Part shown: piece after piece, positions 33,069 to 64,000 of the stretch
Numbering within the stretch: the first letter of the stretch is position 1
Layout of the letters: each line of letters opens with the position of its first letter
Origin: Naegleria gruberi
Lineage: Eukaryota
Assembly: GCA_000004985.1 (NCBI GenBank)
Contig: GG738900.1
Strand: one strand, 5' to 3'
DNA length: 64,000 nt
Notes under the pieces: model-generated
What the model was told of the DNA's origin: nothing
The model's database searches: none
Seen by the model: the letters and a program-made list of their open reading frames with translations, nothing else
Position numbers and translations under genes: made by a program

Positions 33069-36000
33069 ATGTACGATGTTAATAAGGACGATAACAACAA
33101 ACGAAAGGCCTCTCCAACAAGAGATGCTCTCATGCAACAAAGGTTGGAACACTATAAAAAGTATAAAAACCTTTCGTCGGATGTAGATAGGGCTGATGAT
33201 CAAGGTAGTTTTATTGACGATGAAAACTTTCTTCCTGTAACACCCTCCCCTAAGAAGAGAATTGATACAGTAAAAGGAAGAGAAACACCAAGAGAGACTA
33301 CAAAGGAAACCCCAAAGCCTAGTATAACTCCAACTCCTTCCTCATCAAAGAAAGCTCACCCAAATATTCCAGTGCGGGAAAGTTTTCCTTCTCCATCCAT
33401 GAAGTCTTTGAAACAGACCTATGATAATAGTAAGCTTAAACAAGATGAAGAGATGCAGTCTCTACTAGATAAATTAAGGGAAGAAGGTGAACAAAGACAT
33501 CTTCAGCTAATCACTCTTAAGGAAAATGAAAAGGCCGAGTTTGAACAAAGAATTATGAAGAAGGCTGAAGATATTATCACCAAACATAAGGAACAATCCC
33601 AAAGAGCCCAAGAAGAAGTGTACAGAAAGGCCGAAGAGCTTATGAAGAAATATAAAGAAATGGCATCTTTCGCTGGAAAAGAAGTTGAAAAACTAAAGGA
33701 AGAAATGGCAAATCAAAAACTTCTCTATGAAAGAGATTTTCTTGAAAAGCAAGAAGCTGCTAGAAAAGTGGCCGAAGAAGAATATCAACTTAAGGTTCGA
33801 CAATATCAACTCCAAATAGAAGATCTTCAAAAAAAGAACTATTTGCAAAGAGTTGAAATGAGTAAGAATATTGACGAAAGAGCAGAACTTCTCCGAAAAA
33901 GAGCTGAAGATGCTGAAGCTAAGTTGTTAGAAGAAATGGCCAGATTTCAAGAAAAGGAAGTTGAGTTCAGAAGTGAAATTGACTCCCTTAACAAATCATT
34001 ACCATTATTAGCACAACAAAAAGCCGATGATTTAATGAGAGACTACAATCTCAATATTAAGAAGAAAGATTTTGTTCTTAGACAAGAGCAAGATAATCTT
34101 TTGAAGGAAAGAGAGAAAGAACTCAAAAACGAATACGAACAATTAAAGAAAGAATTGGAAGAAGCCAAACTTGAAAATGAAGAGAAAAAGAATCTAGAGT
34201 TCAAGAGGCTTCGTGACAAGATGGACAATGAAAAGAAGGTTTTCGAAGAAACTGTTAACGCTAGGTTTGAAAAGATGAAGAGTCAATTAGAGGCAGAAGT
34301 TGAATCGAAGAAGGATGAACTTCGACTCAAGGAAATGATGTTGAGAGATGAACTCGATAAGGCTAGATTAGATCTTTCTCACAAGGTCATTAGTGAAAAG
34401 AAGGACTTTGAAAATGATATTTTCATGAAGACTAAATCCATGATTATGGAATTTGAAAAGCAACTCGAAAAGAAAGGTGAAGTGCAGTCTGATGACCAAA
34501 AGAAACAACTTGCCAACATTTCTCGTGATGCTCTTGACAAATTAAGAGTTGAAAAAGAGGAAAGAACTCTTTTTGAAAAACAAGCAATGGAAAAGGCAAT
34601 GAATGTTATCAAGGAATTCGAAGAAAAGATGAAGAAAGAATCCGATAGAATCACTCAAGAAAAGCTTAGAGATGTTGAAGAACAAGCCAGAAGAGACAGA
34701 GAAAGAACCGAGGAAGAAGCTAAAAAGAGAAGAGAGTTCGAAGAAGATATCAAATCAAAGTATGAGATATTTAAGGAAGAATACAAACGAAACTTGGATA
34801 GAGAGCTCTTGGAAAAGAAGAGAGAAATTGATTTAGAATTTGCCAAAAAAGAAGAAGAGTTTGAAAAAGAAATGCATGAGCAAAGAAATAACATTAAACT
34901 CCAAGAAAAAGATCTTCTGAGAAAGGTAGAAGGAATCAAACACGAAAAATTACAAGAATCAATTAATCATATTGAACAACTTAGAGGTGATTTGTACAGT
35001 CAGTGGGAAAGAATTTCCAAGGAGGAAGGTAAACGTGTTCTTGAAGAAAAGGATAAAAATCAAAGGGAAATTGAAGATATGAGACGAAGATATGAAGAAA
35101 AATTAAACCTCATTAGAATGACTACTAATAGAGAAATTGATGAAGTAAGAAAGTCTCACCAAGAACTTGAAACAAAGCTGAAGTTCGACTATGAGGAAAG
35201 AGTTCAAAAATTGAATGACGAAAAGAGATTCCTTGAAAAGGAAATGCAAACCAAGATAATAGATAAGAGAAAGGAACTTGAAGAACAATTCGAAAGAAAA
35301 CTTGAAGAAGCAAAGAAAACTTTGGAGTCCTCATTAGAACGTAGGGATAGTGATGTAAAACTCAAGAAGGAAGAAATTGAATACGAAAAACTTTCCTTTG
35401 AAAGAAAGATTAGAGAGGATTACGATACTAGAATTAGAGAAATATCTACCCAATTTGAGAAGAGACAAAAAGAATATCAAGAAAATGAAATTGAGTTGAG
35501 AAGAAAACTCGAACAAGAAAAGATTGAACTTCAAAAGTTAATGGAAGATGAAAAGATGAAATACCAAGAAAGAGTTAGAATCGAAAATGAAAAGATTTTA
35601 AGAGAAAAAGAAAAATTGTTCAAAGAAGAAAAGGAAAAGATAATTGCCCAAACCGAGGAACGTGTTCAAAGTATCAGAAAGGAAACACAAGACAGCCTTT
35701 TCAATAACGACTCAAAGAGGGGTGAATATGAAAATAGTATACGAGACAATTATAGTAAGATGTTCAGAGAAAAGGAACAATATTATCTTACACAAGTTGA
35801 ATCATTAAAACAAACTCTCAAGACACAGAGAGAGGAATATGAGAACAAACTCAATGAAACAGAATTGTCACTAAGAAAGGAAAGAGATGAGGTTGATAGA
35901 CAAATGACTGAAAAGTACAATAGACTTGTTGAACAAATGAATGGCGACTCTAAGAGAGAAACCCATAAGAGAATGCAACAAGAAATTGAATTTGAAAGTG

Positions 36001-39000
36001 AAAAACTTCAATTTGAGATTAAACTTAAGAAGCAATTGGAAGATGAAAGAAAGAAGATGGAAGACAGAATTCATGAAAAGTTCCAAATGGCAGCTGAAGA
36101 AACAGAAACTCATTACAATGATATCATTAGAAATTTGAAAAATAGACTTGATGAAGAAAAGTCTATTATTGATTCAATGGGTAAGAGAGAAAAGGAACTT
36201 CAGAGAATGTATGAAGAAAAATTGCTTGATACCCAAAGACAAACAGAGTTTGCTAAAATGCAATATGAGGAAGAGTCCAAGATGAGATATACACATCTTC
36301 TTCAAGAATATACTCTCAAGGTAAGACAAGAGTTACTTGAGAAGGAAAAGAAGGAAAGAGAGGAAAGACAGAAAGAAATGGAAGAGTTGAACGCCAAGTT
36401 GGTTAGAATGGAAGAAGACAAGAGACTCTTCGAACAAGATGCTAGAGAAAGAGCTCTAGAACTTGTGAAAAAGGTTGAGGAAGATGCCAGAAGAGAAAAG
36501 CAGAAATTGGAAACATACTATAATGACCTTATTAGAAAGCTTCATGAAGAAAAGACCCTGTACAAGCAAGAAGTTGATGAACATTTGAGAATCAAGGAAA
36601 AGGAATTAAGAGCAAGCGTTGACACACTTAGAGTAAAGCTAGAACATGCAACAGATGCTAGAATCTTGGAAGTGAACGAAATTCTTGAAAAAGAACGAAA
36701 CAGATTCATGAAAGAAATGAATGACAGAGCATTGAGAGAAAAGGAGGACAGAATTGTATTTGAAAAGCATCTTCGTGAGGAGATGGAAAATGAATTCCAA
36801 CAAAGAGCCTCAATTGTTGCAGCAAATATTAAACTACAAACAGAAGAAATTGAAAGAAGAATGTATGAAACTGAAAATAATGAAAGAAATAGAATTAGAA
36901 TATTTGAAGAAAGAAGAAAAGCTTATGAGGAAGAAATTCGTGCCAAATACAATATGATTATGAGTCAAGTTGAAGAAGAACAAGAAAAGAATCTTCAAAC
37001 TGTAAAGAAAGAAATTGAAGAAGAAAGAGACCTACTCACTAAGAGACAGAATGAACTTCAAAAGCAGTTCGACTTGGTCACTATTTCTTATGAAAAGACT
37101 ATCAGAGAAAAGTATGATTCTTTGAGACAAGAACAAGATCAAAGATATAAAGATATGCTCAAACAAAAGGATTTCCAATACCAAACCGAAATTGAAGATA
37201 TGAAGAAATCAAGATCTAAGGAGGTAGAATCAATTGAAAGAGACAAGCTTGAATTTGAATCTCGATTGAGAGAAAAGTATAACCTGTTAGAAAGAGAATT
37301 GGAAGGAAAGTATATTGCCCTTCTTTCTGAAGCAGAAAATAGATACAAGAAGGATAAGCAAAAGTTAGAAACTGAAATAGACAAACTCAGAAATGAATTG
37401 CAAATTATGGATTCTCAAAGACTTGAGTATGAGCAACAAACTAGAAGAAGATATGAGGAAATTTTGGAAAAAGAAAGAAATGAAATCCTTAAAGATAAAT
37501 CTCAAATGGAAAAACAATTTAAGAAGGAAATCGATTCTAATATTGAATTATTCAACGAGAGACAAAGAATACTCGAAAAGAGCAAGTTGGATTATGAAGA
37601 GTCTGTTAGAAATAAGTACATGAGAATTTCTGAAGAAAAAGAGAATCAATTAAAGGCCGATCACGAAAGCCAAAAGATGGCGGATCAAAAGAAGTGGGCT
37701 GAAAGACAGGATGAATGGCTTCAAAAGGAGAGAGAATTCGAAACCAAGATTATTCAATATGAAGATCAAATCAAGAATAAGTATGAAGTTATTATCATGG
37801 ATAATCTCAACAAGACGCAAGCTGAAATGAGAAAGCTTAGATCTCAATTAGATGAAGAAAAGAATGCACTTCTCCAACAATTAACAGAAAAAGAAAGAGA
37901 TTTGAATGCTAAATATCAAAGATTTGAAAGAGATTGCAAATCTAACTTTGAAAAAGAAAAGAGAGAATTGATTGCTCACCATGACTCTGTTATTGAAGAA
38001 CTGAAGAAGGCTCTTGAGCAAGATAGAGCAACTTTGCAAAAGGCAGCCCAAGAAAACAGCTTGGAAATGGAAAGAAGATTGATTTCTCACGAAGAAAATA
38101 TTAGAAAACAATACGAAGATAGATATGTAGAGTTGGATGGAGTTCTTCGCAAAGCCATTGAAGATAGAGAACTACAACTACAAAACGAATGGAATAACAG
38201 ATTTGTTAAGGAACAAGAGAGAATGAATACTAATGATCTAGCAAGAATTGAGTTTGAAGATAGAACAAGAGACTACTTCTTCCAATTATTCAATAACAAG
38301 CAAGCTGCTATGGAGCTCCAAATTAATGAAGAAAAAATGAAATTAGAAAAGGAAAGAGAACAAATGAATATTGCTCTTTCAGACAGAATTCAAGAAATTA
38401 GACAAGAAAAGATTGCCTATGAAGCTGAAATTAGAGAGAAATATAATTCTCTCATCCAAAAGGTCCAAGAGGAAATTAATGTCATGTTAAAGGAAAGAGT
38501 TGAGACCGAAAAATCTGAATGGGTAGCCAGAGAGCAAACCTTCATTGAAAGAGAAACTGAATTACACAGGGAAAGAATCAAATCCGAAGAAGATACTAGA
38601 CAAAAACTTGATCAACTTTTGGATTTGGAAAAGAAAAAGTGTAATGAAATCATTGAAACCCTCCAACAAAAGATTAATGAGGAAAGACATTTGGAAAAGG
38701 TTGAGCTTTCAGAAAAGGAAAGAAAATTGGAGGAATACAAGATTGATTATGAACATGTTGTCAGAGAAAAGTACAACATTATCTTGGAAGATGCTCAAAA
38801 GCACTACAAGACAATGATTGAAGAAGCCACTGATAATTTCAATTCTGAACATGACAAACTCATCAAGGAATTCATTAAAAGAAAAGAAGAACAAGATGGT
38901 GAATTACTTGTCTTACAAAATCAATATAGAAAGGAAATCGAAGATCAGCTTATCAAGTTCCAAGAAATACACACCCAAACAATCAAGATGAAGGAAGAAC

Positions 39001-40988
39001 AATTCCATCTTGAACTTGAGGCTGTATCAGAGTCAATCAGAGAAAAGACTTTGGCAAATGACCTTGCTAGAATTGAATATGAAGAGTATGCCAAGAAGAA
39101 GTTTGAAGAAAATATCAAAGAAGAGCTCCAAAGAATTAAACTCATGGAAGAAAATATTAAGGACCGTATGAGAAAGGATTTGGAAGAAAGAGAAAGAAAA
39201 CGCATTGAAGATAGAAAATCCTTTGATGTTGAAAAGGATATCCTTGAACAAAAGATTAGATCCAAATATGAAAAGATTGCAGAAGAACAAGAAAGAGTTC
39301 ATGTTGCCCGTATAGAACAAATACAGGCTATGGTAGATCAAGAAAGAGATAATCTCGAAAGAAGAGACATTGAAAGAAAACAATTAGCTAGAGAACAAGC
39401 TGCCGAGTCTGAAGAAAAAATGAGAAAGTCTTTTGATGAAAAATTCAAACAACTAGTGGAAGAATATGAAAACAAGATTAGACAAAAGGATAGAGAAATG
39501 GTAGCTGAAAAGGATAAATTCAGTGAAGATATGAGAAAGAGAGAAGCTGAAATTACTCAAATCACAGCCGATTTAGATGAGCAAATATCTCAAAAATACA
39601 AGAAGATTCTTGACCAATCAGAAGAAGCAATTAGAAGAGAATTTGAAGTTAATGAAATGCACTTTAAGGCCGATCTCAATAAGAGGTTCGAAGATCAAAT
39701 TAGAGAACTTGAAATTGCTTCACGTATTGAACAACAAAAATACGAAGAAGATATCCAACTTAGATATGAAAGTAGAGTTAAATCTGTTGACGAAAAGTGG
39801 AGAAGTGAATTAGACATTCTCAAGAAGTTCCATGATGAAGAGATTACCAAGCTTCATGACGAAAGTAGACAACAAAGACTATTAGAACAAGAAAATAGAA
39901 CTCAATACGAGCTTGCAGTAAGAGATCAATACTTCACTAAGCAAAAGGAATTGGAGAATGAACATATCGAAATTATTCAAAGCATTAGAAAAGAAGAGGA
40001 AGAAAATAGATCCAAACTAAATGGTCTTTTAGAAGAAGAAATTCAAAGAGTCAAAGACTCTGTTTATCAAGAGAAGCTTGAAATTGAAAAGAGTTATGAC
40101 AAGAAGCTTGACGCTGTCAAAAAGTGTTTTGATGTTGATATTGCTGAAATTAAAAAGCAATTCCAAGAAAAATCCACTGTCATGGATCTTGCAAAGCTAG
40201 ATTTTGAACAAAAAACCAAAGCTAAATATGAAAAGATTCTGGCCGAAGTTCAATCCTCTTTAGAAAAGAAGTTGGATGACAGAAATAAGGAAATTGAAGA
40301 AGCTAGAAAGCAAATGCAACAAGAGAGAATGAATTATGAACTCCTAGTTAGAGAGAAGTATAATGAAACTCTGAAAGAAAAAGAAAAGCAAATGGAAGAA
40401 ATCCTTAAAGAAAGAGAAATGCTTCTCCTTGATGATGATCAAAGAAGAAATCTTGCCTCCTTAGAAAAGGAAAGAAGATTAGAACAAATGAGAATTGAAA
40501 AGGAAGAAGAAATGAGAGCCAGATTTGAAAAACAAACAGAAGAAATTAGAGAATACAGTAAAGCACAAATAGAAGAAACAATCAAACAACTTGAACTCGA
40601 AAGAAATAAGAAGGAAGAAACTGAAAAAGAAATTATGAAACTCCAACAACAAATTGCTAGTATGCAACATAGTATGGATATGTGGAAATTAGAATATCAC
40701 AAGACCACAACATTGAAATTCAAGAAATTAATGAGCGAAGTTGAGCTCAAAGCCAAACGTGAAATGGAAGAATTTGCCAGACAACAATTAGAAGAAGAAG
40801 AGAGAAGATTAACTCAAGAATTGAGAAAGAAAGATGAAGAATTGAGAAAACATAAACAAATGGAAGAAGAATTGCAGCTCAAGACCATGGAACAGCAACA
40901 ACCAAAGAGAACTCAACCTGGTGAATTTTCTGATAGTACCAGTGAAAAGAACTTCCCAATCAAAAAGGGACTCAGAAACTTTAAATAA
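33069..40988 (+). CDS. giant 2639-aa, extremely E/K/R-rich repetitive coiled-coil / single-alpha-helix-type protein; single 7.9-kb exon
   Basis: Uninterrupted ORF from a true ATG at 33069. The K/S/T/P-rich N-terminus is followed by ~2400 aa that are almost entirely E, K, R, L, Q, I and D. Degenerate motifs recur at roughly 55/110-aa spacing: (I/V)REKYN, AKYE, RNKYM, LARIEFE/LARIEYE, LEKERN. All antisense ORFs in this span are low-complexity artefacts. Confidence 0.7.
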   Translation: MYDVNKDDNNKRKASPTRDALMQQRLEHYKKYKNLSSDVDRADDQGSFIDDENFLPVTPSPKKRIDTVKGRETPRETTKETPKPSITPTPSSSKKAHPNIPVRESFPSPSMKSLKQTYDNSKLKQDEEMQSLLDKLREEGEQRHLQLITLKENEKAEFEQRIMKKAEDIITKHKEQSQRAQEEVYRKAEELMKKYKEMASFAGKEVEKLKEEMANQKLLYERDFLEKQEAARKVAEEEYQLKVRQYQLQIEDLQKKNYLQRVEMSKNIDERAELLRKRAEDAEAKLLEEMARFQEKEVEFRSEIDSLNKSLPLLAQQKADDLMRDYNLNIKKKDFVLRQEQDNLLKEREKELKNEYEQLKKELEEAKLENEEKKNLEFKRLRDKMDNEKKVFEETVNARFEKMKSQLEAEVESKKDELRLKEMMLRDELDKARLDLSHKVISEKKDFENDIFMKTKSMIMEFEKQLEKKGEVQSDDQKKQLANISRDALDKLRVEKEERTLFEKQAMEKAMNVIKEFEEKMKKESDRITQEKLRDVEEQARRDRERTEEEAKKRREFEEDIKSKYEIFKEEYKRNLDRELLEKKREIDLEFAKKEEEFEKEMHEQRNNIKLQEKDLLRKVEGIKHEKLQESINHIEQLRGDLYSQWERISKEEGKRVLEEKDKNQREIEDMRRRYEEKLNLIRMTTNREIDEVRKSHQELETKLKFDYEERVQKLNDEKRFLEKEMQTKIIDKRKELEEQFERKLEEAKKTLESSLERRDSDVKLKKEEIEYEKLSFERKIREDYDTRIREISTQFEKRQKEYQENEIELRRKLEQEKIELQKLMEDEKMKYQERVRIENEKILREKEKLFKEEKEKIIAQTEERVQSIRKETQDSLFNNDSKRGEYENSIRDNYSKMFREKEQYYLTQVESLKQTLKTQREEYENKLNETELSLRKERDEVDRQMTEKYNRLVEQMNGDSKRETHKRMQQEIEFESEKLQFEIKLKKQLEDERKKMEDRIHEKFQMAAEETETHYNDIIRNLKNRLDEEKSIIDSMGKREKELQRMYEEKLLDTQRQTEFAKMQYEEESKMRYTHLLQEYTLKVRQELLEKEKKEREERQKEMEELNAKLVRMEEDKRLFEQDARERALELVKKVEEDARREKQKLETYYNDLIRKLHEEKTLYKQEVDEHLRIKEKELRASVDTLRVKLEHATDARILEVNEILEKERNRFMKEMNDRALREKEDRIVFEKHLREEMENEFQQRASIVAANIKLQTEEIERRMYETENNERNRIRIFEERRKAYEEEIRAKYNMIMSQVEEEQEKNLQTVKKEIEEERDLLTKRQNELQKQFDLVTISYEKTIREKYDSLRQEQDQRYKDMLKQKDFQYQTEIEDMKKSRSKEVESIERDKLEFESRLREKYNLLERELEGKYIALLSEAENRYKKDKQKLETEIDKLRNELQIMDSQRLEYEQQTRRRYEEILEKERNEILKDKSQMEKQFKKEIDSNIELFNERQRILEKSKLDYEESVRNKYMRISEEKENQLKADHESQKMADQKKWAERQDEWLQKEREFETKIIQYEDQIKNKYEVIIMDNLNKTQAEMRKLRSQLDEEKNALLQQLTEKERDLNAKYQRFERDCKSNFEKEKRELIAHHDSVIEELKKALEQDRATLQKAAQENSLEMERRLISHEENIRKQYEDRYVELDGVLRKAIEDRELQLQNEWNNRFVKEQERMNTNDLARIEFEDRTRDYFFQLFNNKQAAMELQINEEKMKLEKEREQMNIALSDRIQEIRQEKIAYEAEIREKYNSLIQKVQEEINVMLKERVETEKSEWVAREQTFIERETELHRERIKSEEDTRQKLDQLLDLEKKKCNEIIETLQQKINEERHLEKVELSEKERKLEEYKIDYEHVVREKYNIILEDAQKHYKTMIEEATDNFNSEHDKLIKEFIKRKEEQDGELLVLQNQYRKEIEDQLIKFQEIHTQTIKMKEEQFHLELEAVSESIREKTLANDLARIEYEEYAKKKFEENIKEELQRIKLMEENIKDRMRKDLEERERKRIEDRKSFDVEKDILEQKIRSKYEKIAEEQERVHVARIEQIQAMVDQERDNLERRDIERKQLAREQAAESEEKMRKSFDEKFKQLVEEYENKIRQKDREMVAEKDKFSEDMRKREAEITQITADLDEQISQKYKKILDQSEEAIRREFEVNEMHFKADLNKRFEDQIRELEIASRIEQQKYEEDIQLRYESRVKSVDEKWRSELDILKKFHDEEITKLHDESRQQRLLEQENRTQYELAVRDQYFTKQKELENEHIEIIQSIRKEEEENRSKLNGLLEEEIQRVKDSVYQEKLEIEKSYDKKLDAVKKCFDVDIAEIKKQFQEKSTVMDLAKLDFEQKTKAKYEKILAEVQSSLEKKLDDRNKEIEEARKQMQQERMNYELLVREKYNETLKEKEKQMEEILKEREMLLLDDDQRRNLASLEKERRLEQMRIEKEEEMRARFEKQTEEIREYSKAQIEETIKQLELERNKKEETEKEIMKLQQQIASMQHSMDMWKLEYHKTTTLKFKKLMSEVELKAKREMEEFARQQLEEEERRLTQELRKKDEELRKHKQMEEELQLKTMEQQQPKRTQPGEFSDSTSEKNFPIKKGLRNFK

Positions 40989-57088: not shown

Positions 57089-57669
57089 TAGATAACTATG
57101 GAAATGGATTTGTCTCCGCTTAACCTTAAGAGCCTCAATGCGGTCTATTTGCTATTTTGAACCCTCGAGGCCAAGGATACTTAAATCTCTTTGGATAACC
57201 TGCCGTTTTAGTATTTATTTCTGAGATGTTATGTTATCCAATGAGATTCTGCAAATCATTTTCATTTATGGCAGTGTGAGAAATGAGTGACAGGAATGGA
57301 CTGGGAATAAAACAATCCTTAATGGATGTGTTGGAAATACGCATCACGAGGATTCTGGTTCACATTCAGAGTGATTCACACATTCTTACCAATCCTTAAA
57401 ATGAAAATGGCAACTTGCAAGAAGAATTTCATACCTAAATGCAACCATGATTGAGTCCATGCTCCATTAACTCTTTTAACTTTCACTATTTACAATTTCG
57501 AATACTGAACTGTAAAACTTACTCAAAAATTTTTTTGTAAACATAAACCCCACAGTAATAGATTATCAACCTTATTCCCTTTGTCCATTCAAAAACGTGA
57601 CAGGAAACGTGATACGTAAAACCAGATTTTGATTTGGCAAGCGAAAAAATTGTAAAAATAGAAAAAAAA

Positions 57670-58809
57670 ATGACTCGACTTGATGTGCAGTTTTGTAAGG
57701 GATTTGTTCAGACTAATGTTCAGAACGTTTATTGTACAGATGTTGGTGGAAAGGGATTGAAGAATAATAATGATCGATTTATTTTACAGTTTAATCAATA
57801 TTATCAGAAAGGTTTGATGGTGAAAAATCAGGAGAAGGGAATTCCGATGAGATATTTTGAAATATTTATTCAGCATGTTTCTGAGAAAAAGCCAATATTT
57901 GCTATTGGATTGGCAAAACCTAATTATGATAGAGGAATGGTTGGTTGGTATGATGAATCGATTGGATATCATGCTGATGATGGATATGTTTTTCATAATG
58001 TTGGAAATCAACATAATACTGAGAATTTGATTGGATTGTATTCTTTTGGAGATAGTGTTGGAGTTTTGTTAATTGGTTCTAAAGCATATTTTACAAAGAA
58101 TGGAGTAGCTAATACCAAAGCTTTTGAGCTGAAGAATTATGCTCATGAACAATATTTACCAACTTTGTCTTCTTCAGATTCTGACACTACCATCAAGGTT
58201 TTAAGTCCAAGTGAATTCAAGTTCAATATTGACAAGTTCATTAAAGAAGATTTGAAACTCGAATTAATAGAGAATGAGACACCTCAAAGAAGTGTAAATG
58301 ATTCTGCTAATGACATGCTGAATCATTGTGATGGATTGAAAAAGTTAATTCTAGATGTGATAGAACAACAATCAGTGAATGATTCTCTCCAAAAGCAAAA
58401 AGATACTGAAATTCAAAAATTGAAAATTGAAATTACAGAGCTACAATCCTCTAACGAAAAACTGAAACAACAACATGAAATAACCTTAAAAGAGAATGAA
58501 AAATTGAGAGATGTAAAGACAAGACTTGCACTCAATCAACAAGATATCAATAATTTAAGTCTGGAACAATTGAAAGAGTTGTCACGTATTCTCCTAGATA
58601 CTCAAAACACAATCCATAGTAAGGAGAAAGACTTGCTAGATGTTGAGCTACTCTGTGTGGTTTGTCAAGATAAGAGAAAGAATACCTTGTTCTTACCTTG
58701 TAAACATCTTTGTGTTTGCGCTGAATGTGCTGAGAGTGTCAAATCTACTGGAAAACAATGTCCAGTTTGTAGAACTGTTATATCTGATAGCATACAAACA
58801 CATCTCTAA
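57670..58809 (+). CDS. SPRY domain, coiled-coil and C-terminal RING-finger E3 ubiquitin-ligase-like protein, ~380 aa
   Basis: The track M at 57634 is a TTG; the first ATG is at 57670 (MTRLDVQF…). SPRY: IGLAKPNYDRGMVGWYDESIGYHADDGYVFHNVGNQ…FGDSVGVLLIGSKAYFTKNGV. Coiled coil: EIQKLKIEITELQSSNEKLKQQHE. C-terminal C3HC4 RING: CVVCQDKRKNTLFLPCKHLCVCAECAESVKSTGKQCPVCR. Confidence 0.75.
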   Translation: MTRLDVQFCKGFVQTNVQNVYCTDVGGKGLKNNNDRFILQFNQYYQKGLMVKNQEKGIPMRYFEIFIQHVSEKKPIFAIGLAKPNYDRGMVGWYDESIGYHADDGYVFHNVGNQHNTENLIGLYSFGDSVGVLLIGSKAYFTKNGVANTKAFELKNYAHEQYLPTLSSSDSDTTIKVLSPSEFKFNIDKFIKEDLKLELIENETPQRSVNDSANDMLNHCDGLKKLILDVIEQQSVNDSLQKQKDTEIQKLKIEITELQSSNEKLKQQHEITLKENEKLRDVKTRLALNQQDINNLSLEQLKELSRILLDTQNTIHSKEKDLLDVELLCVVCQDKRKNTLFLPCKHLCVCAECAESVKSTGKQCPVCRTVISDSIQTHL

Positions 58810-58869: not shown

Positions 58870-61218
58870 TTATTTATGCTTGATGTAGTATTGATCACTT
58901 TCATCGAATGCTTTGAAAATTGTATGTAATGGTTGGCCGGTAACAAGGAGGGAAGAAAGTCCATTTTCATTTCTTTCAGCTTGGAAAGCTTCATGTTGAT
59001 ACATTAAAATATTGAAAACTGGTGTGTTGCAGTTGGATTGAACTGGTGAGGCTCTCATGAATTGATTGTAAATAGCCAACATGTTCATTACAACTTCAAC
59101 ATTTCCACCAACAATTCCAGGATTAAGAAGCATACTATTTAGAGGTGTTTGATGTTTAGAAAGGGTATTAAGTGGATAAGGAGCTGATTTGTTATAGTAG
59201 AATGATCCATTGACTTCATCAATAGTGATGGAGCATTGAGCAAGCTTTTGTTGAGCCCACTTGGATGAACCAATAGTGGTTGGCTCTGAACCAAAGAAGA
59301 GCTTGTCAGTACTTTCACATACATCACCATCACATTCATCAAAGGTAGAAAGATATTCGAAAGGATTCTTATTAAACTTGATATCAAATAGATCAGTCAT
59401 TATAACTCTCTTTGGTAAAAGACTGAGGCCTTTAGTTGATTCTCTTTGAGCTTGAAGAAGGAAGTTTTCATAAATGAAGAATCTCTCATCATTGGTTGAT
59501 CTCTCACCCAATTGAACGAGTTCAAATCTTACATTATATGAAGTTAACTTGTTGAAACCACACTTGGTGTAAAGTTTGGCATCGTCATAGAAAACCACAG
59601 CTCTAAGATTATGTTTGTGAACCGATTCGTACCATTCTCTCATTGGCTCAAAACAAGAGTCACCATATTGTTCATCTCTTTCTGGATGACCCTTTGTAAC
59701 AAAGTAAGTGGTAAAAATAACATCGTCTGTTACTTGATTATTGGAAAAGTGATAGTATTTCAAGTACCAATCAACAAATTTACGAACACCATCTTCGAGT
59801 TTGGTCTTTGGTTGGAAATTGAGTAATTCTTGACTGTGTGTAATGTCAGCAAAGGTAATGGTCATATCAGTTGGTGGTTTCTTTACATGATTAATCTTGG
59901 CCTTCTTATCGAGAGCCTTTTCAATATACTTGATCATATCAGTAACCTTCTCAGGAGTATGGTTACCTAAATTGAAAACATCATGAACAGCTCTTCCTTC
60001 TTCTCTTTTAACACGATCTCCATAATTCATAGAATTGATAATACCATTAACAATATCATCAATATAGGTAAAATCTCTCATTAACTCTTTTCCTTCGAGA
60101 GTGTAAAGAGTAATTGGCTTACCCTTAACAATTTGATCAACCCAACTGAAAAGAGCCATATCTGGTCTTCCATAAGGGCCATAAACAGTAAAGAATCTCA
60201 ATCCAATAACTGGAATACCGTAAAGGTAGTTATAAGTTTCAGCAAATAATTCTTGGGATATCTTGGAGGCGCTATATACATTGGTAGGTTTGTTAATGTT
60301 CATTTGTTCATGGAATGCAGATGGATCAAATTCTTGAATGTTTCCATAAACGCTTGAACTGGAGGCATAGGCAAAAACTGGAGGATTAGTTTTTTGGTAT
60401 TTAACACTAGTTTCCAACAATTCTATTTGACAGAGAATGTTATTTCTAATGTAGGTTTGGGGATTTTTAAGGGAATATCTTACACCAGCTTGGGCAGCAA
60501 GATGGAGAACATGTGTAAAGGTGTATTTCTCGAAAATTTCACTCAAAATTGAAGTATTGCATACATCTCCCTCAATGACTTGAAAATCAATGAATGGCTT
60601 AATGTCTGCTTCTTCTTTTCTCAAAATTGTACTCGCTTGTTCAATCAAATTTTGATTGATTTCTCTAACAGTCTTTTCCAATTGTTTCTTTCTCATGTAT
60701 TTCAAGTCAGTTGAGTAGTAGTCATTGAAATTATCAAGACCAATCATGACACTACGTTCAACATTATTCAATGCCAAATCAATTTGTTCAATATTGCCCT
60801 TTGTTTCATTGACAAGAGTTGCCATAAAATTGTTCCAATAGGCAAACTCTTCCTTTGCAAGCTTTTCAGCAAGATGAAAGCCAATAAATCCAGCACTTCC
60901 AGTAACTAGAACTTTACGAGAATGAGAAGATTGGGAAAGACCAACCGTATTATCAGATTCTCCTGATGATGTCATATTGGTGGAAGCACTTCCACTAACA
61001 ATAGAACCATCAACAGAAGCAGCAACACTTGCAACAGAAAGTCCGGAAGCAGTATTGCTGTTAGAAGTAGTGGAGGCAACAACTACTTCGGAGTGTGCAT
61101 TACCAGCACACATCATCAAGACAATGGCAAACATCATCATGATTGTCATCATCTTCCATGATGATGAGAACTTTAACAGAATGGTACTCTTAGAGTAATA
61201 ATAGTGTCTATGAGACAT
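58870..61218 (-). CDS. type-II membrane protein with UDP-glucuronate 4-epimerase-like (GAE, extended SDR) domain fused to a ~400-aa uncharacterised C-terminal domain; single exon
   Basis: The track M at 61239 is a TTG. Candidate ATGs are at 61218 (MSHRHYYY…) and at 61152 (MMTIMMMFAIVLMMCAGNAHS, a signal anchor). An S/T-rich stem follows. The SDR core reads KVLVTGSAGFIGFHLAEKL, FTHVLHLAAQAGVRYSLKNPQTYIRNNI, YASSSSVYG, YSASKISQELFAETYNYLYGIPVIGLRFFTVYGPYGRPDMALFSW (YxxxK). This closely matches plant-type GAE UDP-glucuronate 4-epimerases. The C-terminal half (…VIFTTYFVTKGHPERDEQYGDSCFEPMREWYESVHKHNLRAVVFYDD…) matches no family I recognise. Confidence 0.75.
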   Translation of the reverse strand: MSHRHYYYSKSTILLKFSSSWKMMTIMMMFAIVLMMCAGNAHSEVVVASTTSNSNTASGLSVASVAASVDGSIVSGSASTNMTSSGESDNTVGLSQSSHSRKVLVTGSAGFIGFHLAEKLAKEEFAYWNNFMATLVNETKGNIEQIDLALNNVERSVMIGLDNFNDYYSTDLKYMRKKQLEKTVREINQNLIEQASTILRKEEADIKPFIDFQVIEGDVCNTSILSEIFEKYTFTHVLHLAAQAGVRYSLKNPQTYIRNNILCQIELLETSVKYQKTNPPVFAYASSSSVYGNIQEFDPSAFHEQMNINKPTNVYSASKISQELFAETYNYLYGIPVIGLRFFTVYGPYGRPDMALFSWVDQIVKGKPITLYTLEGKELMRDFTYIDDIVNGIINSMNYGDRVKREEGRAVHDVFNLGNHTPEKVTDMIKYIEKALDKKAKINHVKKPPTDMTITFADITHSQELLNFQPKTKLEDGVRKFVDWYLKYYHFSNNQVTDDVIFTTYFVTKGHPERDEQYGDSCFEPMREWYESVHKHNLRAVVFYDDAKLYTKCGFNKLTSYNVRFELVQLGERSTNDERFFIYENFLLQAQRESTKGLSLLPKRVIMTDLFDIKFNKNPFEYLSTFDECDGDVCESTDKLFFGSEPTTIGSSKWAQQKLAQCSITIDEVNGSFYYNKSAPYPLNTLSKHQTPLNSMLLNPGIVGGNVEVVMNMLAIYNQFMRASPVQSNCNTPVFNILMYQHEAFQAERNENGLSSLLVTGQPLHTIFKAFDESDQYYIKHK

Positions 61219-61750
61219 TTTACGATATGTAATGAGCAATGATGCAACAGGGATGCAATAGAATCTACAAACTAATATTAGGAAGAGGACAACGAGTGTT
61301 GAGATGAGGATCCTTTTTTTTGTTAAATAGTAAACTTGATTTTTAAAATAGAGACCATGGACCTCAAATAAATAGCAGAAGTCCGCATGGGAAGTTTAAA
61401 ACTCTAATTATGCTTCCTTCATTCTGTGATGCATCATCAATGATAACACTTGTAGATTGCCAGCATGAATAAGTAAATATTTGCTTCTGGTTCCCTCCTT
61501 ATTGAATAATGAATATTATTCGGTCATTTTCAAGGAGTATCATCTTGATCAAACAATTGAAGAGACAGGAGTTGAATGGCCTGAGTGTGGACAAATGGTT
61601 GCTTTCAGTTTTGAAATTCCAAGTTTCTCCTCCACTACAGTGTCGAGGAGTTAAAGAGGAGTTATTGAAGGTCAAATAATTTGAAAAGATTTTCCTCATG
61701 ACTTCCGTGTTACTACTGTTCCGTAGTGTGAGTGAAAATATCAGAATTGA

Positions 61751-64000
61751 TTAACTGCCATATCGAATAAGGCCAACTAGTGAAGGGCCTTGTTCTGGCT
61801 TGTGCTCATCCCGTACTTCAAATCCATGTTTTTTGAGAAAATCAACCACAGAGGAGTAACCTTCATCCTTGTAAACAAAAGTATAAATTGGAAGAGAAGC
61901 CTCATCAGACGATTTGATTATTGGCATGAGCACTTCATTGCCAAGTCCTTTCTTTCTCAATTTAGGTTTAACAGCAAGTGCCAATAGTGTCCAGTGAGGT
62001 TTATGAGGCGAGGAAATGAGAGAGTTGTGATATTCTTCCATACTCTCAGCACATTTGATACATCTGTACATGGATTTAAGTTTTCTTAATAATAGGTACG
62101 TTAATGAAATTGAAGCTTATGGGATTACTTACAGACTCTTGGGTGATTTTAAAATTCCAAGCTTTAACATTCTCCATAAACCAATACCTTTCGTATTGTA
62201 GGGATCTTGCCATATAGAAATAGCTTGAATTTCCTTGTCCTGATTGGCGAGTGAGTAGTGAATATTGACATATACTCTGCCATATTTGATTCCATATTTT
62301 AGTAATAGAGTACAGAGAAATAAGAGAGCATCTTCTGCAATCTCACTTATTGATTCCACATTAAAAATATGCTTTAAAAGAGAATTCCAATTCAGAAAGG
62401 GTGAATTATTAGTAGTGGGAATGATCAATGCTGGTGAATCCTCAGCAGTAGATGTGCTTGTGGATTTTGAGCTTCCAGTACCAGTACTGTTAGTCAATTT
62501 GGCTTCAATGAATAGCTTCTGGAGTGGATTGTTATCAGAATGTTTGACAACATTAACCAAAAATTTGGCAGCCTCCTCAATTTGACCAGGATGAATCTCT
62601 GAAACTACATTTTTACCTCGCTTATTTCTATCTCTTCTTGTTCGTGGTTTGTGAATTTTTACATAATTATAGACCTGAGTTTTGAATATGTTATTGTCGA
62701 ACAATCCATTTCCAATCTTGGCAATGTCTGATGATGCACGCGATTTGGTACTGTTACTCCTAGATTTTCTTGATTTTGTGCCTGCTGCGTTTGAGTTGGT
62801 TATTTCCTTTCCAATACTTGTTGATGTAACAAAGTTTTTAAACCATTCCTCTTCCCAAATCTTGAAAAATTCCTTGCAACACAATGCAACATGATACATA
62901 TCTTCCAATGAGAGGAAGGCAAATACATTTAACTTTAAAGAAGTTGGATTGAGAGTATTGAAACTTTGTAATGAGAGTTTGATATTATCTTCCCTAAAGT
63001 TTTCCATGATTCGATCCAAAATTTTAATCGTTTTTGCAGCACTAGGTCTGTCCCTTGGTTGATAGCTCAGTAATAGTTTGGTCAAATTGAATAAACCCCT
63101 AGAATATCCCATAGTATCGACACAGTAATGTTCAATCTCATTGAAAAAGTTTGGATTTTTCTGCAATTCCATTGACACCATCATTTGTTTTCCTTCAGCC
63201 ATCATTTGAAGAAGAATCCTATCCAAGTTTATGATTAATATTGAAGATGAATAGACAACCTACACTCCAAATGAATACATATCCGTTGACTGATCATAAA
63301 ATTCCTTGTTTAACATTTCATAGCTCATAAAATCTATTGTTCCACACTGGGTTTTAGCCATTGATAGTGTATCCAAAACTCTACTAATTCCAAAATCTCC
63401 AATCTTTAAAACTCCTGATGCGTCTATTAGAATATTTTGTGGTTTTCTAGAATTAAATTTAAAAGAATAAAAAAATTAATTTTAAATTAATTCGAAACTT
63501 ACAAATCTCGATCTATAAAAAGTATAATAAATTCCAATAATAATAGTAATAGAAATACATACGTATTATATTATTTTCATGCAAATAATTCAATCCTTCA
63601 GCAATTTGAATTGCATAATTTACTATATCCTTTTCCTTCATCTTTCTCTCCTTTTTACAAGTTGTAGTAATGAGCTTTTGCAAATCTCCTCCAGGACAAT
63701 ATTCAATACACAAACAGACATATAAAGTCTCTGCCTTTTTACTGTATTGATGAAGAAAGGCTCCCAAATACTTTATCACATTTCTATGAGAAAGATTCCG
63801 AAGTTTTTGAGCTTCATTCAAATGAATATTGGCCTCATCCAATGAAGACCATTCCATTCTCTTGATTGCTATTTGTTCTTCTGTTTTCTTGTGTTCAGCC
63901 AAAACGACTTGTCTAACATAAGTTATGATGATTAGCCATTTGATATTAATAAAACAACTTACCCTTCCGAACCTCTCCCTAAAATCTTTATAACGTAGTA
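61751..64000 (-). CDS. Ser/Thr protein kinase with C-terminal GNAT acetyltransferase-like fold (partial: the 5' end lies beyond the window); exons in window: 63964-64000+, 63563-63913, microexon 63503-63512, 63264-63446, 62133-63207, 61751-62063
   Basis: The kinase domain is reconstructed across five introns: …ILGRGSEG|GQVVLAEHKKTEEQIAIKRMEW…HRNVIKYLGAF…YLHENNII|HRDL|KPQNILIDASGVLKIGDFGISRV…DMYSFGV|VILLQMMAEGKQMM…RPSA. The invariant HRDL catalytic-loop residues sit on a 10-nt microexon (ATCGAGATTT) between 50- and 56-nt introns. A ~250-aa S/N/K-rich linker follows. …GRVYVNIHYSLANQDKEIQAISIWQDP…GLWRMLKLGILKSPKS then splices (CT|GTAAGT … TGTACAG|A, 69-nt intron) in frame to …HKPHWTLLALAVKPKLRKKGLGNEVLMPII… (GNAT motif A Q/RxxGxG). 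The C-terminal fusion rests on this frame-consistent splice and is unconfirmed. Confidence 0.6.

What the first reader, a model, noticed from the sequence alone, without database searches (positions are those of the whole stretch)
61751..64000. Protein kinase gene whose last exon appends a GNAT acetyltransferase-like fold
Frame-consistent splicing links a complete Ser/Thr kinase catalytic domain, through a ~250-aa low-complexity linker, to a C-terminal segment. That segment carries the GNAT acetyl-CoA-binding motif A (KPKLRKKGLGNEVL) preceded by a beta-strand/helix core. The GNAT core itself spans an intron. A kinase–acetyltransferase fusion is an unusual domain combination. It could couple phosphorylation and acetylation of the same substrates. 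Alternatively the 106-aa downstream ORF, starting at the ATG at 62071, is an independent and truncated-looking GNAT gene.
Basis: partly seen in the sequence, partly recalled or inferred. Interest (0 to 1): 0.6.

Follow-up and report, generated by a model that had tools for sequence, protein, structure and literature searches.

The report
Naegleria kinase–F-box–acetyltransferase fusion gene

Summary
The fusion is real. On the minus strand, six exons (five GT..AG introns of 45-56 nt, including a 10-nt micro-exon that completes the HRDL catalytic loop) give one open frame. It reads Ser/Thr kinase, then F-box, then a short disordered linker, then a roughly 270-aa GNAT domain.

The window is Naegleria gruberi. 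The spliced product is identical, apart from three N-terminal residues that lie beyond the window edge, to the public model XP_002672146.1 / NAEGRDRAFT_72831 (669 aa, "predicted protein").

The acceptor is not: the supported intron is 48 nt (62132-62085), not 69 nt. The seven extra residues (KLKSMYR) are present in all 12 homologues compared.

The GNAT call falls below Pfam's thresholds but is firmly supported otherwise:
- 268 HMMER hits, many spanning the splice junction.
- An AlphaFold model with pLDDT 86.9.

Continuous kinase–F-box–GNAT proteins occur in Willaertia magna, in uninterrupted genomic ORFs, and in poly(A)-tailed transcripts of a relative. The independent 106-aa ORF reading is rejected.

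The acetyl-CoA loop (RKKGLG) is intact, but the equivalents of PAC's Tyr171 and Glu161 are Leu and Phe, so catalysis is uncertain. Interest is moderate to low: the gene model is known, while the three-domain architecture is undescribed.

The parts
63963..64000 (-). Exon (partial; the window cuts off the first 3 codons, MEQ). Encodes YYVIKILGRGSEG, the start of the kinase Gly-rich loop.
   Evidence: The public model P0162 begins MEQ + this sequence.
63913..63962 (-). Intron, 50 nt, GTAAGT..TTAG.
   Evidence: Its removal is needed for the open frame and matches P0162.
63563..63912 (-). Exon encoding the kinase N-lobe and start of the C-lobe, including the IAIK lysine (nt 63872-63861).
63513..63562 (-). 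Intron, 50 nt, GTATGT..ATAG.
63503..63512 (-). 10-nt micro-exon, ATCGAGATTT, which completes the HRDL catalytic loop.
   Evidence: An identical micro-exon lies at L001 9144-9153. It is required for HRDLKPQN, which is present in P0162.
63447..63502 (-). Intron, 56 nt, GTAAGT..CTAG.
63264..63446 (-). Exon carrying KPQN, DFG (63397-63389) and the activation segment, with MSYE in place of APE.
63219..63263 (-). Intron, 45 nt, GTAGGT..ATAG.
62133..63218 (-). Large exon. It encodes the end of the kinase, the F-box, the linker, the basic motif and the N-terminal about 160 residues of the GNAT domain, and ends ...KSPKS(L).
62085..62132 (-). Intron, 48 nt, GTAAGT..TTAAG, phase 2. The in-frame TAA at 62129-62131 is part of the donor.
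   Evidence: The same position and phase occur in L001 (107 nt) and L016 (41 nt).
61751..62084 (-). Last exon, KLKSMYRCIK...LIRYGS plus stop TAA 61751-61753. It encodes the C-terminal about 110 residues of the GNAT domain. ATG 62071 is an internal Met codon.
63023..64000 (-). Ser/Thr protein kinase domain (window-protein residues 1-259; interrupted by four introns).
   Evidence: Pfam Pkinase E = 3.4e-55, profile positions 2-257 of 263. Nearest solved structures are Aurora A, NEK2 and NEK1, E about 1e-28 to 1e-29.
62825..62956 (-). F-box (window-protein residues 282-325; core LKLNVFAFLSLEDMYHVALCCKEFFKIWEEEWF).
   Evidence: The isolated segment scores F-box 21.0 bits (cut-off 20.5). The L001 segment scores F-box-like 29.1 bits (cut-off 24.3). 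Identity to L001 is 56%, against 33% in the flanking linker.
62612..62659 (-). Conserved basic motif KIHKPRTRRDRNKRGK immediately before the GNAT domain. It may be a nuclear-localisation signal (inference only).
   Evidence: R17, G23 and K24 are invariant in the family alignment A2.
61754..62608 (-). GNAT (PAC-like) acetyltransferase-fold domain, 269 aa, interrupted by the 48-nt intron.
   Evidence: - phmmer against 7k09: E = 4.4e-4.
- 268 HMMER hits.
- Family profile against 7k09: E = 2.5e-44.
- AF2 pLDDT 86.9.
- Foldseek E = 7e-10.
62402..62494 (-). Low-complexity Ser/Thr-rich insert inside the GNAT domain, between alpha2 and the next helix.
   Evidence: The modelled low-confidence stretch (domain residues 53-68, pLDDT < 50) lies within it. 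Identity to L001 is 18%, with indels.
61940..61957 (-). GNAT motif A, RKKGLG (acetyl-CoA pyrophosphate-binding loop; P0162 residues 602-607).
   Evidence: Gly605 and Gly607 fall in columns that are 98% and 92% Gly across 130 family members.

Best explanation
**What it is (shown).** This is the 3' 98% of one protein-coding gene of Naegleria gruberi: NAEGRDRAFT_72831, XP_002672146.1, UniProt D2VUY8, 669 aa.

**Gene structure (shown).** It is transcribed from the minus strand and spliced from at least six exons. These include a 10-nt micro-exon and a 48-nt phase-2 intron at 62132-62085.

**Protein architecture (shown, from sequence and a predicted fold).** In order, the single polypeptide carries:
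- An N-terminal Ser/Thr kinase with intact catalytic motifs: GRGSEG, IAIK, HRDLKPQN and DFG.
- An F-box.
- A short disordered linker and a basic motif.
- A C-terminal GNAT-fold domain of the puromycin-N-acetyltransferase-like subfamily, which carries a low-complexity insert.

This architecture defines a conserved family in heterolobosean amoebae.

**How it most likely works (inferred).**
- The kinase is active.
- The F-box docks the protein onto Skp1/cullin. The protein is then either an SCF substrate receptor or is itself turned over by ubiquitination, as reported for the F-box-bearing kinase MEKKalpha of Dictyostelium.
- The GNAT domain binds acetyl-CoA through its intact RKKGLG loop.
- In this N. 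gruberi copy the residues equivalent to PAC Tyr171 (general acid) and Glu161 are Leu642 and Phe628. I therefore think the domain is a weak transferase, or more probably an acetyl-CoA/ligand-binding or substrate-recognition module, rather than an efficient acetyltransferase.

The gene structure and architecture are near-certain. The functional reading has a probability of about 0.3-0.4.
For: **Identity of the locus**
- Four window ORFs are exact matches to N. gruberi proteins NAEGRDRAFT_72810/72815/72816/72822, on a 312-kb scaffold.
- P0162 (XP_002672146.1, 669 aa) minus its first three residues equals my spliced product exactly.

**Splice**
- All five introns are GT..AG and 45-56 nt long.
- With the 48-nt intron there is no gap against 12 homologues; with the 69-nt intron a 7-residue gap appears.
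- The deleted stretch would include Arg166 of the domain, a column that is 78% Arg in 130 relatives.
- The same intron position and phase occur in two other genomes, at different lengths: L001 at 107 nt and L016 at 41 nt.

**One domain across the junction**
- Stand-alone proteins of about 200 aa align continuously across query position 159/160.
- Identity to L001 is 59% before the intron and 56% after it.

**Fusion without any splicing inference**
- P0009 is an uninterrupted 626-aa kinase...GNAT ORF on a 31.7-kb genomic contig.
- P0033 is a 664-aa ORF on a 55-kb contig.
- P0059 is the Willaertia magna protein KAL9656570.1.
- P0005 (720 aa) is encoded on contigs that end in poly(A) about 70 nt after the stop and carry Illumina adapter sequence at the 5' end, so they are assembled mRNAs.

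**Domains**
- Pkinase: E = 3.4e-55.
- F-box: above the Pfam cut-off on the isolated segments.

**Catalytic residues**
- The PAC mapping comes, with numbering checked against A142 and L145 of the PAC paper PMC7933286.

**Precedent**
Against: - I could not examine any transcript of the N. gruberi gene itself. The splice rests on homology, splice-site consensus and the public gene model, whose own evidence I cannot see.
- Pfam GNAT models stay below their gathering scores: best 19.3 bits against 20.7 for Acetyltransf_1.
- F-box is below the cut-off when the whole protein is scored: 15.7 and 16.6 bits.
- The single-sequence AF2 model was poor, pLDDT 37.8. The good model depends on an alignment dominated by stand-alone GNATs.
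- Loss of the Tyr171 and Glu161 equivalents does not prove inactivity. The PAC paper itself notes that some GNATs work without the tyrosine.
- Nothing here tests Skp1 binding, acetyl-CoA binding or kinase activity.
Confidence: 0.9

Rival explanations
1. The same fused gene is spliced with a 69-nt intron (donor at 62132, acceptor ACAG| before 62063), giving a protein seven residues shorter. This could be either the main product or a minor alternative isoform.
For: - The ACAG| acceptor exists and is in frame.
- The product is a single open frame of 659 codons.
- Two in-frame acceptors 21 nt apart could in principle be used alternatively.
Against: - It leaves a 7-column gap against all 12 homologues.
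- It removes a conserved Arg (78% of 130 relatives) from what the model predicts to be a helix.
- Its 69-nt length lies outside the 45-56 nt range of the gene's other introns.
- Its product is not contained in the public model.
Confidence: 0.04
2. Two separate genes. The kinase gene ends unspliced at TAA 62129-62131, and a small truncated GNAT gene starts at ATG 62071 (106 aa).
For: - Both ORFs exist.
- Prokaryote-style gene callers report them separately on an ENA contig (P0001 and P0163).
- The 106-aa ORF alone gives the best Pfam GNAT score, E = 0.0015.
Against: - The 106 aa would be only the C-terminal about 40% of a GNAT fold. Beta1 to beta4 lie in the upstream exon.
- Only 57 nt separate the stop from the ATG.
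- The seven codons upstream of the ATG are conserved coding sequence.
- The TAA is part of a canonical GTAAGT donor conserved in position in three genomes.
- Homologues are continuous in genomic ORFs and in mRNAs.
Confidence: 0.02
3. Same gene, but the GNAT domain is a fully active acetyltransferase. The protein would then be a true bifunctional kinase/acetyltransferase acting on common protein or small-molecule substrates, and the F-box would matter only for turnover.
For: - Motif A (RKKGLG) and the structural core are intact (W533, H589, W590, G605, G607, D619, Y626 in P0162 numbering).
- Many paralogues or orthologues keep the Tyr (FYKRHGF in P0003, P0005, P0008, P0009, P0011).
- The domain is conserved at 56-59% identity against 18-33% in the linkers, which implies selection.
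- Some GNATs work without the general-acid Tyr (PMC7933286).
Against: - The equivalents of Tyr171 and Glu161 are Leu and Phe in this copy, and the Glu is absent from every fused homologue aligned.
- In PAC, removing Y171 greatly reduces activity.
Confidence: 0.3
4. The F-box-like segment is a degenerate relic or simply a helical linker that does not bind Skp1. The protein would then be only a two-module kinase–GNAT fusion.
For: - Whole-protein Pfam scores for F-box and F-box-like are below the gathering cut-offs.
- The canonical Leu-Pro start of the F-box reads N-P here.
Against: - The isolated segments pass the cut-offs: 21.0 against 20.5 bits here, 29.1 against 24.3 in L001.
- The segment is a conservation island, 56% identical against 32-33% in its flanks.
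- Precomputed Pfam hits to F-box-like recur in P0005, P0008, P0033 and the L001 and L016 exons.
Confidence: 0.15

Closest known systems
Puromycin N-acetyltransferase (PAC, Streptomyces alboniger; PDB 7k09/7k0a) and the widespread family of stand-alone PAC-like GNATs of about 200 aa
   Same: - Best sequence match among solved structures, E = 4.4e-4.
- The family profile matches PAC over its full length, E = 2.5e-44.
- Shared signature W..P ... PHW.L..L.V.P..(Q/R)..G.G ... AD...P.Y ... F..(R/K)HGF ... R.
   Different: - Here the domain is the C-terminal module of a 669-aa kinase/F-box protein rather than a free-standing enzyme.
- It carries a Ser/Thr-rich insert of about 30 aa.
- The equivalents of PAC Glu161 and Tyr171 are Phe and Leu, and the conserved Asn before the Tyr is Val.
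- Sequence identity to PAC is only about 18%.
Dictyostelium MEKKalpha (a protein kinase carrying an F-box and WD40 repeats)
   Same: A protist Ser/Thr kinase with an F-box in the same polypeptide. There, the F-box/WD40 region controls the kinase's ubiquitin-dependent stability (PMC5666861, citing Chung et al. 1998).
   Different: - It belongs to a different kinase family.
- Its F-box/WD40 region lies N-terminal to the kinase (from my own recollection of Chung et al. 1998, not checked here), whereas the F-box here lies C-terminal to the kinase.
- Its partner domain is WD40, not GNAT.
- No homology beyond the domains themselves was tested here.
AAC(6')-Ie/APH(2'')-Ia bifunctional aminoglycoside-modifying enzyme (named from general knowledge)
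   Same: It is a single polypeptide combining a GNAT acetyltransferase with a phosphotransferase of the protein-kinase-like fold.
   Different: - It is bacterial.
- The order is reversed: GNAT is N-terminal.
- The phosphotransferase is an APH, not a canonical Ser/Thr protein kinase.
- It has no F-box.
- NCBIfam AAC(6') models gave only E = 0.14 on the L001 homologue's domain, so this gene is not a member.
O-GlcNAcase C-terminal pseudo-histone-acetyltransferase domain (PDB 3zj0, 6r45)
   Different: - The partner enzyme is a glycoside hydrolase, not a kinase.
- By my recollection, the human pseudo-HAT lacks the acetyl-CoA-binding residues, whereas motif A is intact here.
- No specific sequence relationship was found.
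Public gene model XP_002672146.1 / EFC39402.1 / UniProt D2VUY8 (NAEGRDRAFT_72831)
   Same: Identical to the product derived here, including the micro-exon and the 48-nt intron.
   Different: The source names are only 'predicted protein', 'uncharacterized protein' and 'non-specific serine/threonine protein kinase'. None of them mentions the F-box or the GNAT domain. No paper in the searchable library cites the gene.

Membership tests
GNAT (GCN5-related N-acetyltransferase) superfamily | Mixed alpha/beta GNAT fold (beta1-alpha1-alpha2-beta2-beta3-beta4-alpha3-beta5-alpha4-beta6) | tested here: met
   - AF2 with a 131-sequence alignment: pLDDT 86.9, pTM 0.81.
- Foldseek: 116 hits at E <= 1e-3, and the top 50 listed are all GNAT acetyltransferases or GNAT-containing enzymes.
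- This is a predicted structure, not a solved one.
GNAT (GCN5-related N-acetyltransferase) superfamily | Motif A, Q/R-x-x-G-x-G/A, on the beta4-alpha3 loop (acetyl-CoA pyrophosphate binding) | tested here: met
   R602-K-K-G605-L-G607 in P0162 numbering. The columns are 84% Q / 12% R, 98% G and 92% G across 130 relatives.
GNAT (GCN5-related N-acetyltransferase) superfamily | Score at or above the curated Pfam gathering cut-off for a GNAT model (Acetyltransf_1/7/10, FR47) | tested here: not met
   The best score is 19.3 bits against 20.7 (Acetyltransf_1, last-exon ORF alone). The whole protein scores 15.2 bits. The L001 homologue scores 18.9-20.1 bits. Other sequence evidence compensates: phmmer to PAC at E = 4.4e-4 and 268 HMMER hits.
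GNAT (GCN5-related N-acetyltransferase) superfamily | Acetyl-CoA-dependent acyl transfer to an amine | not testable with these tools
   This needs an enzyme assay. The general-acid Tyr is absent (see the next row).
PAC-like GNAT subfamily (puromycin N-acetyltransferase, 7k09) | Proposed general acid Tyr171, and Glu161 (substrate binding / candidate base), as described in PMC7933286 | tested here: not met
   In the alignment, Leu642 (FLKKHGF) falls at Tyr171 and Phe628 (PIYTFV) at Glu161. The family columns are 81% Y (+16% F) and 68% E (+16% D).
PAC-like GNAT subfamily (puromycin N-acetyltransferase, 7k09) | Full-length sequence relationship to PAC and its stand-alone relatives | tested here: met
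   - The window domain matches stand-alone relatives of 150-240 aa (P0013-P0025) at E from 6e-18 to about 3e-10, across the splice junction.
- The profile of these relatives matches PAC residues 7-206 of 208, E = 2.5e-44.
Eukaryotic protein kinase (Pfam Pkinase, PF00069) | Profile match above the gathering score, plus the catalytic motifs (Gly loop, VAIK Lys, HRD, DFG, APE) | tested here: met
   Pkinase scores 187.7 bits against 31.7, covering profile positions 2-257 of 263. GRGSEG, IAIK, HRDLKPQN and DFG are present; APE is the variant SYE, with the Glu kept. Activity itself was not tested.
F-box proteins (SCF substrate receptors) | F-box motif recognised at the Pfam cut-off | tested here: inconclusive
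   - Whole protein: F-box-like 16.6 bits against 24.3, and F-box 15.7 against 20.5.
- Isolated 49-aa segment: F-box 21.0 against 20.5.
- L001 segment: F-box-like 29.1 against 24.3.
- The segment is a conserved island, and F-box-like hits recur in the precomputed Pfam annotation of homologues.
F-box proteins (SCF substrate receptors) | Binding to Skp1 and assembly into an SCF complex | not testable with these tools
   This needs an interaction assay.
AAC(6')-APH(2'') type bifunctional acetyltransferase-phosphotransferases | An AAC(6') GNAT joined to an APH(2'') aminoglycoside phosphotransferase | tested here: not met
   NCBIfam AAC_6p_Ia_fam scores only 12 bits against a cut-off of 265, on the L001 homologue's domain. 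The kinase here is a canonical Pkinase, and the domain order is reversed.

The most novel reading that the evidence does not exclude
The heterolobosean kinase–F-box–GNAT family may be a metabolic-state-coupled SCF adaptor. In this reading the PAC-like GNAT domain has lost its catalytic Glu (and, in the N. gruberi lineage, its catalytic Tyr) but keeps the acetyl-CoA loop. It would work as an acetyl-CoA (or CoA-ester) sensor or substrate-recognition module. It would gate which proteins the attached kinase phosphorylates and the SCF complex ubiquitinates. One polypeptide would then integrate acetyl-CoA level, phosphorylation and ubiquitin-dependent degradation.
Probability: 0.15. Interest if true: 0.65.

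Novelty: new variant of a known kind. Interest (0 to 1): 0.35.

Why it matters
**What the work settles**
- It shows that the protein is not a simple two-domain fusion. It is a conserved three-module protein: kinase, F-box and a PAC-like GNAT.
- Standard Pfam thresholds do not reveal two of those modules. Public names call the protein only a kinase or a predicted protein.

**Why the combination is of interest**
- All three modules belong to families that act in covalent modification: phosphorylation, ubiquitination and acetylation.
- If the GNAT module binds acetyl-CoA, the family would be a candidate link between metabolic state and protein turnover in Naegleria and its relatives. That group includes the pathogen N. 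fowleri, which I did not test.

**Limits**
- Lineage-specific domain shuffling is common in protists.
- The gene model itself has been public since the N. gruberi genome release.
- No function has been demonstrated.

Tried and rejected
I built and translated it. I rejected it in favour of the 48-nt intron after aligning homologues and comparing with the public model.
2. **Independent 106-aa GNAT gene.** Rejected, as set out under the rival explanations.
3. **Single-sequence AlphaFold of the C-terminal 290 aa.** The model was unusable, pLDDT 37.8. I repeated it with an alignment.
4. **The search for homologous proteins, run twice.** I queried once with a single sequence and once with a 9-sequence family alignment. 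Both runs returned only P0001 and P0002. The second run was wasted. The exhaustive HMMER search found 268 relatives that the word-indexed tool missed.
5. **NCBIfam scan of the GNAT domain.** It gave only noise: rimI at E = 0.063 and AAC(6')-Ia at E = 0.14.
6. **Rfam scan of the window and L001.** No matches.
7. **AlphaFold-database fold search.** The library was unavailable, so I could not list structural neighbours by organism or count N. gruberi and N. fowleri paralogues.
8. **Literature searches.** I searched for the locus tag and accessions, and for kinase/F-box/GNAT architectures. Nothing relevant turned up.
9. **Synteny between the window and L001.** Not conserved downstream: an epimerase gene here, a Peptidase_C48 gene there. 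I therefore treat L001 and L016 as closest homologues rather than proven orthologues.
10. **Kinase subfamily.** Aurora and NEK are equally close, at about 1e-28. No assignment was made.


Full report
**1. What is in the sequence**

Read on the minus strand, window 64000-61751 contains a protein kinase gene interrupted by short introns. I located the boundaries by motif search and checked them by translation.

| Feature | Window coordinates | Note |
|---|---|---|
| Exon (partial) | 64000-63963 | cut by the window end |
| Intron | 63962-63913 | 50 nt |
| Exon | 63912-63563 | |
| Intron | 63562-63513 | 50 nt |
| Micro-exon | 63512-63503 | 10 nt, ATCGAGATTT |
| Intron | 63502-63447 | 56 nt |
| Exon | 63446-63264 | |
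| Intron | 63263-63219 | 45 nt |
| Exon | 63218-62133 | |
| Intron | 62132-62085 | 48 nt (see section 2) |
| Last exon | 62084-61751 | stop TAA at 61753-61751 |

- All five introns are GT..AG.
- The micro-exon is what turns ...NNIIH|RDL|KPQN into the canonical HRDLKPQN catalytic loop.

**2. The last intron**

A second acceptor lies 21 nt upstream: TTATTAAG|, which makes 62084 the first exon base. It is also in frame and gives a 48-nt intron. It adds the residues KLKSMYR. Four observations favour this acceptor:

The 48-nt version aligns without a gap. For example, KSLKLKSMYRCIKCAESMEEYH aligns with KSLGIKGLFRTMKAVEDMEAIH (L001) and LIGLKGIYRCMKVFQEDCKIH (P0009).
- The seven residues include a position that is Arg in 78% of 130 relatives.
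- 48 nt fits the 45-56 nt range of the gene's other introns.
- The public gene model uses this acceptor (section 3).

ATG 62071 is therefore an internal methionine codon. TAA 62129-62131 is simply part of the GTAAGT donor.

**3. Identity of the locus**

Exact-sequence look-ups of intronless window ORFs returned Naegleria gruberi proteins XP_002672135.1, XP_002672137.1, XP_002672085.1 and XP_002672141.1. These are NAEGRDRAFT_72810, 72815, 72816 and 72822, on a 312,004-bp scaffold.

The 90%-identity cluster of the exon-5 ORF contains XP_002672146.1 / EFC39402.1 / UniProt D2VUY8, NAEGRDRAFT_72831, 669 aa. Its source names are 'predicted protein', 'uncharacterized protein' and 'non-specific serine/threonine protein kinase'.

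- After its first three residues (MEQ, beyond the window edge), its sequence is identical to my 666-residue spliced product.

So the fused gene model is already public, but none of its names mentions an F-box or an acetyltransferase domain. No paper in the searchable library cites the locus tag or accessions.

**4. The same architecture elsewhere**

- *Closest homologue.* P0002 lies on contig L001. It has the identical layout, the identical 10-nt micro-exon, and an intron at the same codon position and phase (...AAGAGTCT|GTAAGT, 107 nt).
- *Third genome.* L016 has the same phase-2 intron, 41 nt long.
- *Per-region identity, window against L001*:

| Region | Identity |
|---|---|
| Kinase | 74% |
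| F-box | 56% |
| Linker | 33% |
| Low-complexity insert | 18% |
| GNAT part before the intron | 59% |
| GNAT part after the intron | 56% |

  Both halves of the GNAT domain are therefore under the same constraint.
- *Exhaustive HMMER search.* The spliced C-terminal domain gave 268 hits at E <= 1e-3, 19 at E <= 1e-10 and 7 at E <= 1e-30.
- *Continuous fusion proteins among those hits.*
  - P0004 (864 aa), P0005 (720 aa), P0009 (626 aa), P0012 (842 aa), P0033 (664 aa) and P0059 (756 aa) all run from kinase to GNAT.
  - P0059 is the Willaertia magna protein KAL9656570.1.
  - P0009 is one uninterrupted ORF on a 31.7-kb genomic contig, and P0033 is one on a 55-kb contig. The fusion therefore does not depend on any splicing inference.
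  - P0005 is encoded on more than 20 contigs of about 2.3 kb. Several end in poly(A) about 70 nt after the stop and begin with Illumina adapter remnants, so they are assembled mRNAs.
  - P0008, which looked like F-box plus GNAT only, has kinase exons upstream on its contig.
- *Distribution of the GNAT-splitting intron.* It occurs in the N. gruberi-like lineage (window, L001, L016). It is absent from the P0009 and P0033 loci and from the P0003 ORF, which spans the junction.

**5. The domains**

*Kinase.*
- Pfam Pkinase scores E = 3.4e-55 over profile positions 2-257 of 263.
- The Gly loop, IAIK, HRD and DFG are intact. APE is the variant SYE.
- The nearest solved kinases are Aurora A, NEK2 and NEK1, at E about 1e-28 to 1e-29. 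I made no subfamily assignment.

- It falls below the cut-off in the whole protein.
- It passes on the isolated segments: 21.0 against 20.5 bits here, and 29.1 against 24.3 bits in L001.
- It recurs as a precomputed hit in several homologues.

*GNAT.*
- Pfam models stay just below their gathering scores: best 19.3 against 20.7 bits.
- phmmer against PDB sequences finds puromycin N-acetyltransferase (7k09) at E = 4.4e-4.
- A profile of 130 relatives plus the query matches 7k09 over its full length at E = 2.5e-44, and matches 2qec at E = 1.2e-25.
- AlphaFold2 with that alignment gives pLDDT 86.9 and pTM 0.81. Only the Ser/Thr-rich insert is disordered. The single-sequence run had failed, with pLDDT 37.8.
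- Foldseek's top hits are all GNATs, led by 7k09 at E = 7e-10.

The domain runs from VVSEIHP (nt 62608) to the stop, so about 160 of its 269 residues lie upstream of the intron.

**6. Catalytic features of the GNAT module**

- Motif A (R602-K-K-G605-L-G607) and the family's structural signature residues are conserved.
- In PAC, the crystal-structure paper assigns Tyr171 as the probable general acid. Its removal greatly reduces activity. The same paper names Glu161 as a puromycin-binding residue and candidate distal base (PMC7933286).
- In the alignment, these positions are Leu642 (FLKKHGF) and Phe628 (PIYTFV) in the N. gruberi protein. I checked the numbering offset against PAC A142 and L145.
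- Among 130 relatives, the two columns are 81% Tyr (+16% Phe) and 68% Glu (+16% Asp).
- All fused homologues aligned lack the Glu.
- The Tyr is kept in P0003, P0004, P0005, P0008, P0009 and P0011. It is Leu in the window, L001, P0006 and L016, and Phe in P0010, P0012, P0033 and P0059.

The domain therefore very probably binds acetyl-CoA. Whether it transfers acetyl groups efficiently is open.

**7. How it most likely works**

*Shown.* It is one polypeptide carrying a kinase, an F-box and a PAC-like GNAT fold. The architecture is conserved as a family in Heterolobosea.

*Inferred.*
- The kinase is active.
- The F-box recruits Skp1/cullin, either to ubiquitinate bound targets or to control the protein's own stability. 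There is a precedent in Dictyostelium MEKKalpha, a kinase with an F-box and WD40 repeats whose stability is regulated by ubiquitination (PMC5666861).
- The conserved basic stretch KIHKPRTRRDRNKRGK may be a nuclear-localisation signal. This is pure inference.

**8. Verdict**

- The kinase–GNAT fusion is real and conserved.
- The acceptor site, the 'low-complexity linker' and the 'last exon appends the fold' details are wrong.
- An F-box was missed.
- The separate-ORF alternative is rejected.
- The gene model has been public since the N. gruberi genome annotation. What appears to be undescribed is the three-module architecture and the cryptic PAC-like GNAT with altered catalytic residues.
- Interest is moderate to low. 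The protein is a plausible but untested regulatory hub in a lineage where domain shuffling is common.

Noticed in passing
window 63503-63512 (-); L001 9144-9153 (+): A 10-nt micro-exon (ATCGAGATTT), flanked by 50-nt and 56-nt introns, supplies part of the HRDL kinase catalytic loop. The identical 10 nt, also flanked by introns, occur in the closest homologue. The public model includes the micro-exon.
   Followed up: partly
window 58870-61239 (-): The neighbouring gene is a single 789-aa ORF. It has a hydrophobic N-terminus and a Ser-rich stretch. Residues about 190-490 match NAD-dependent epimerase / GDP-mannose-dehydratase-type domains (E = 1.5e-47). A C-terminal extension of about 300 aa has no Pfam match.
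   Followed up: partly
window 57634-58809 (+): A 391-aa ORF carries a SPRY domain (E = 6.6e-6) and a C-terminal C3HC4 RING finger (E = 5.8e-16). It is a putative E3 ubiquitin ligase lying two genes away from the F-box kinase.
   Followed up: partly
window 12222-12881 (-), tblastn hit 12732-12971: A second, unrelated kinase gene fragment. The ORF matches the C-terminal part of Pkinase (E = 1e-16) and is 36% identical to the catalytic core of the kinase studied here. Its upstream exons were not modelled.
   Followed up: no
window about 61850 (-); ENA protein P0163: A 3,066-nt ENA metagenome contig carries the same gene at near-identity. Its 106-aa ORF differs by one residue (GYSFVVDF against GYSSVVDF here). 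That suggests a strain-level polymorphism of N. gruberi in an environmental sample.
   Followed up: no
L001 11837-12397 (-); L016 3666-4181 (-): In both closest homologue loci, the gene is followed on the opposite strand by a Peptidase_C48 (SUMO/Ulp-type protease) gene. In the N. gruberi window, the downstream neighbour is the epimerase gene instead. Local synteny therefore differs.
   Followed up: no
window 33069-40988 (+): An uninterrupted 2,639-aa ORF, the largest in the window. It was not examined.
   Followed up: no
tool behaviour: The word-indexed homologue search returned only two proteins, even with a 9-sequence family profile. The exhaustive HMMER search found 268 relatives, including full-length fused proteins. 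A negative result from the indexed search should not be read as absence for this kind of divergent eukaryotic protein.
   Followed up: yes
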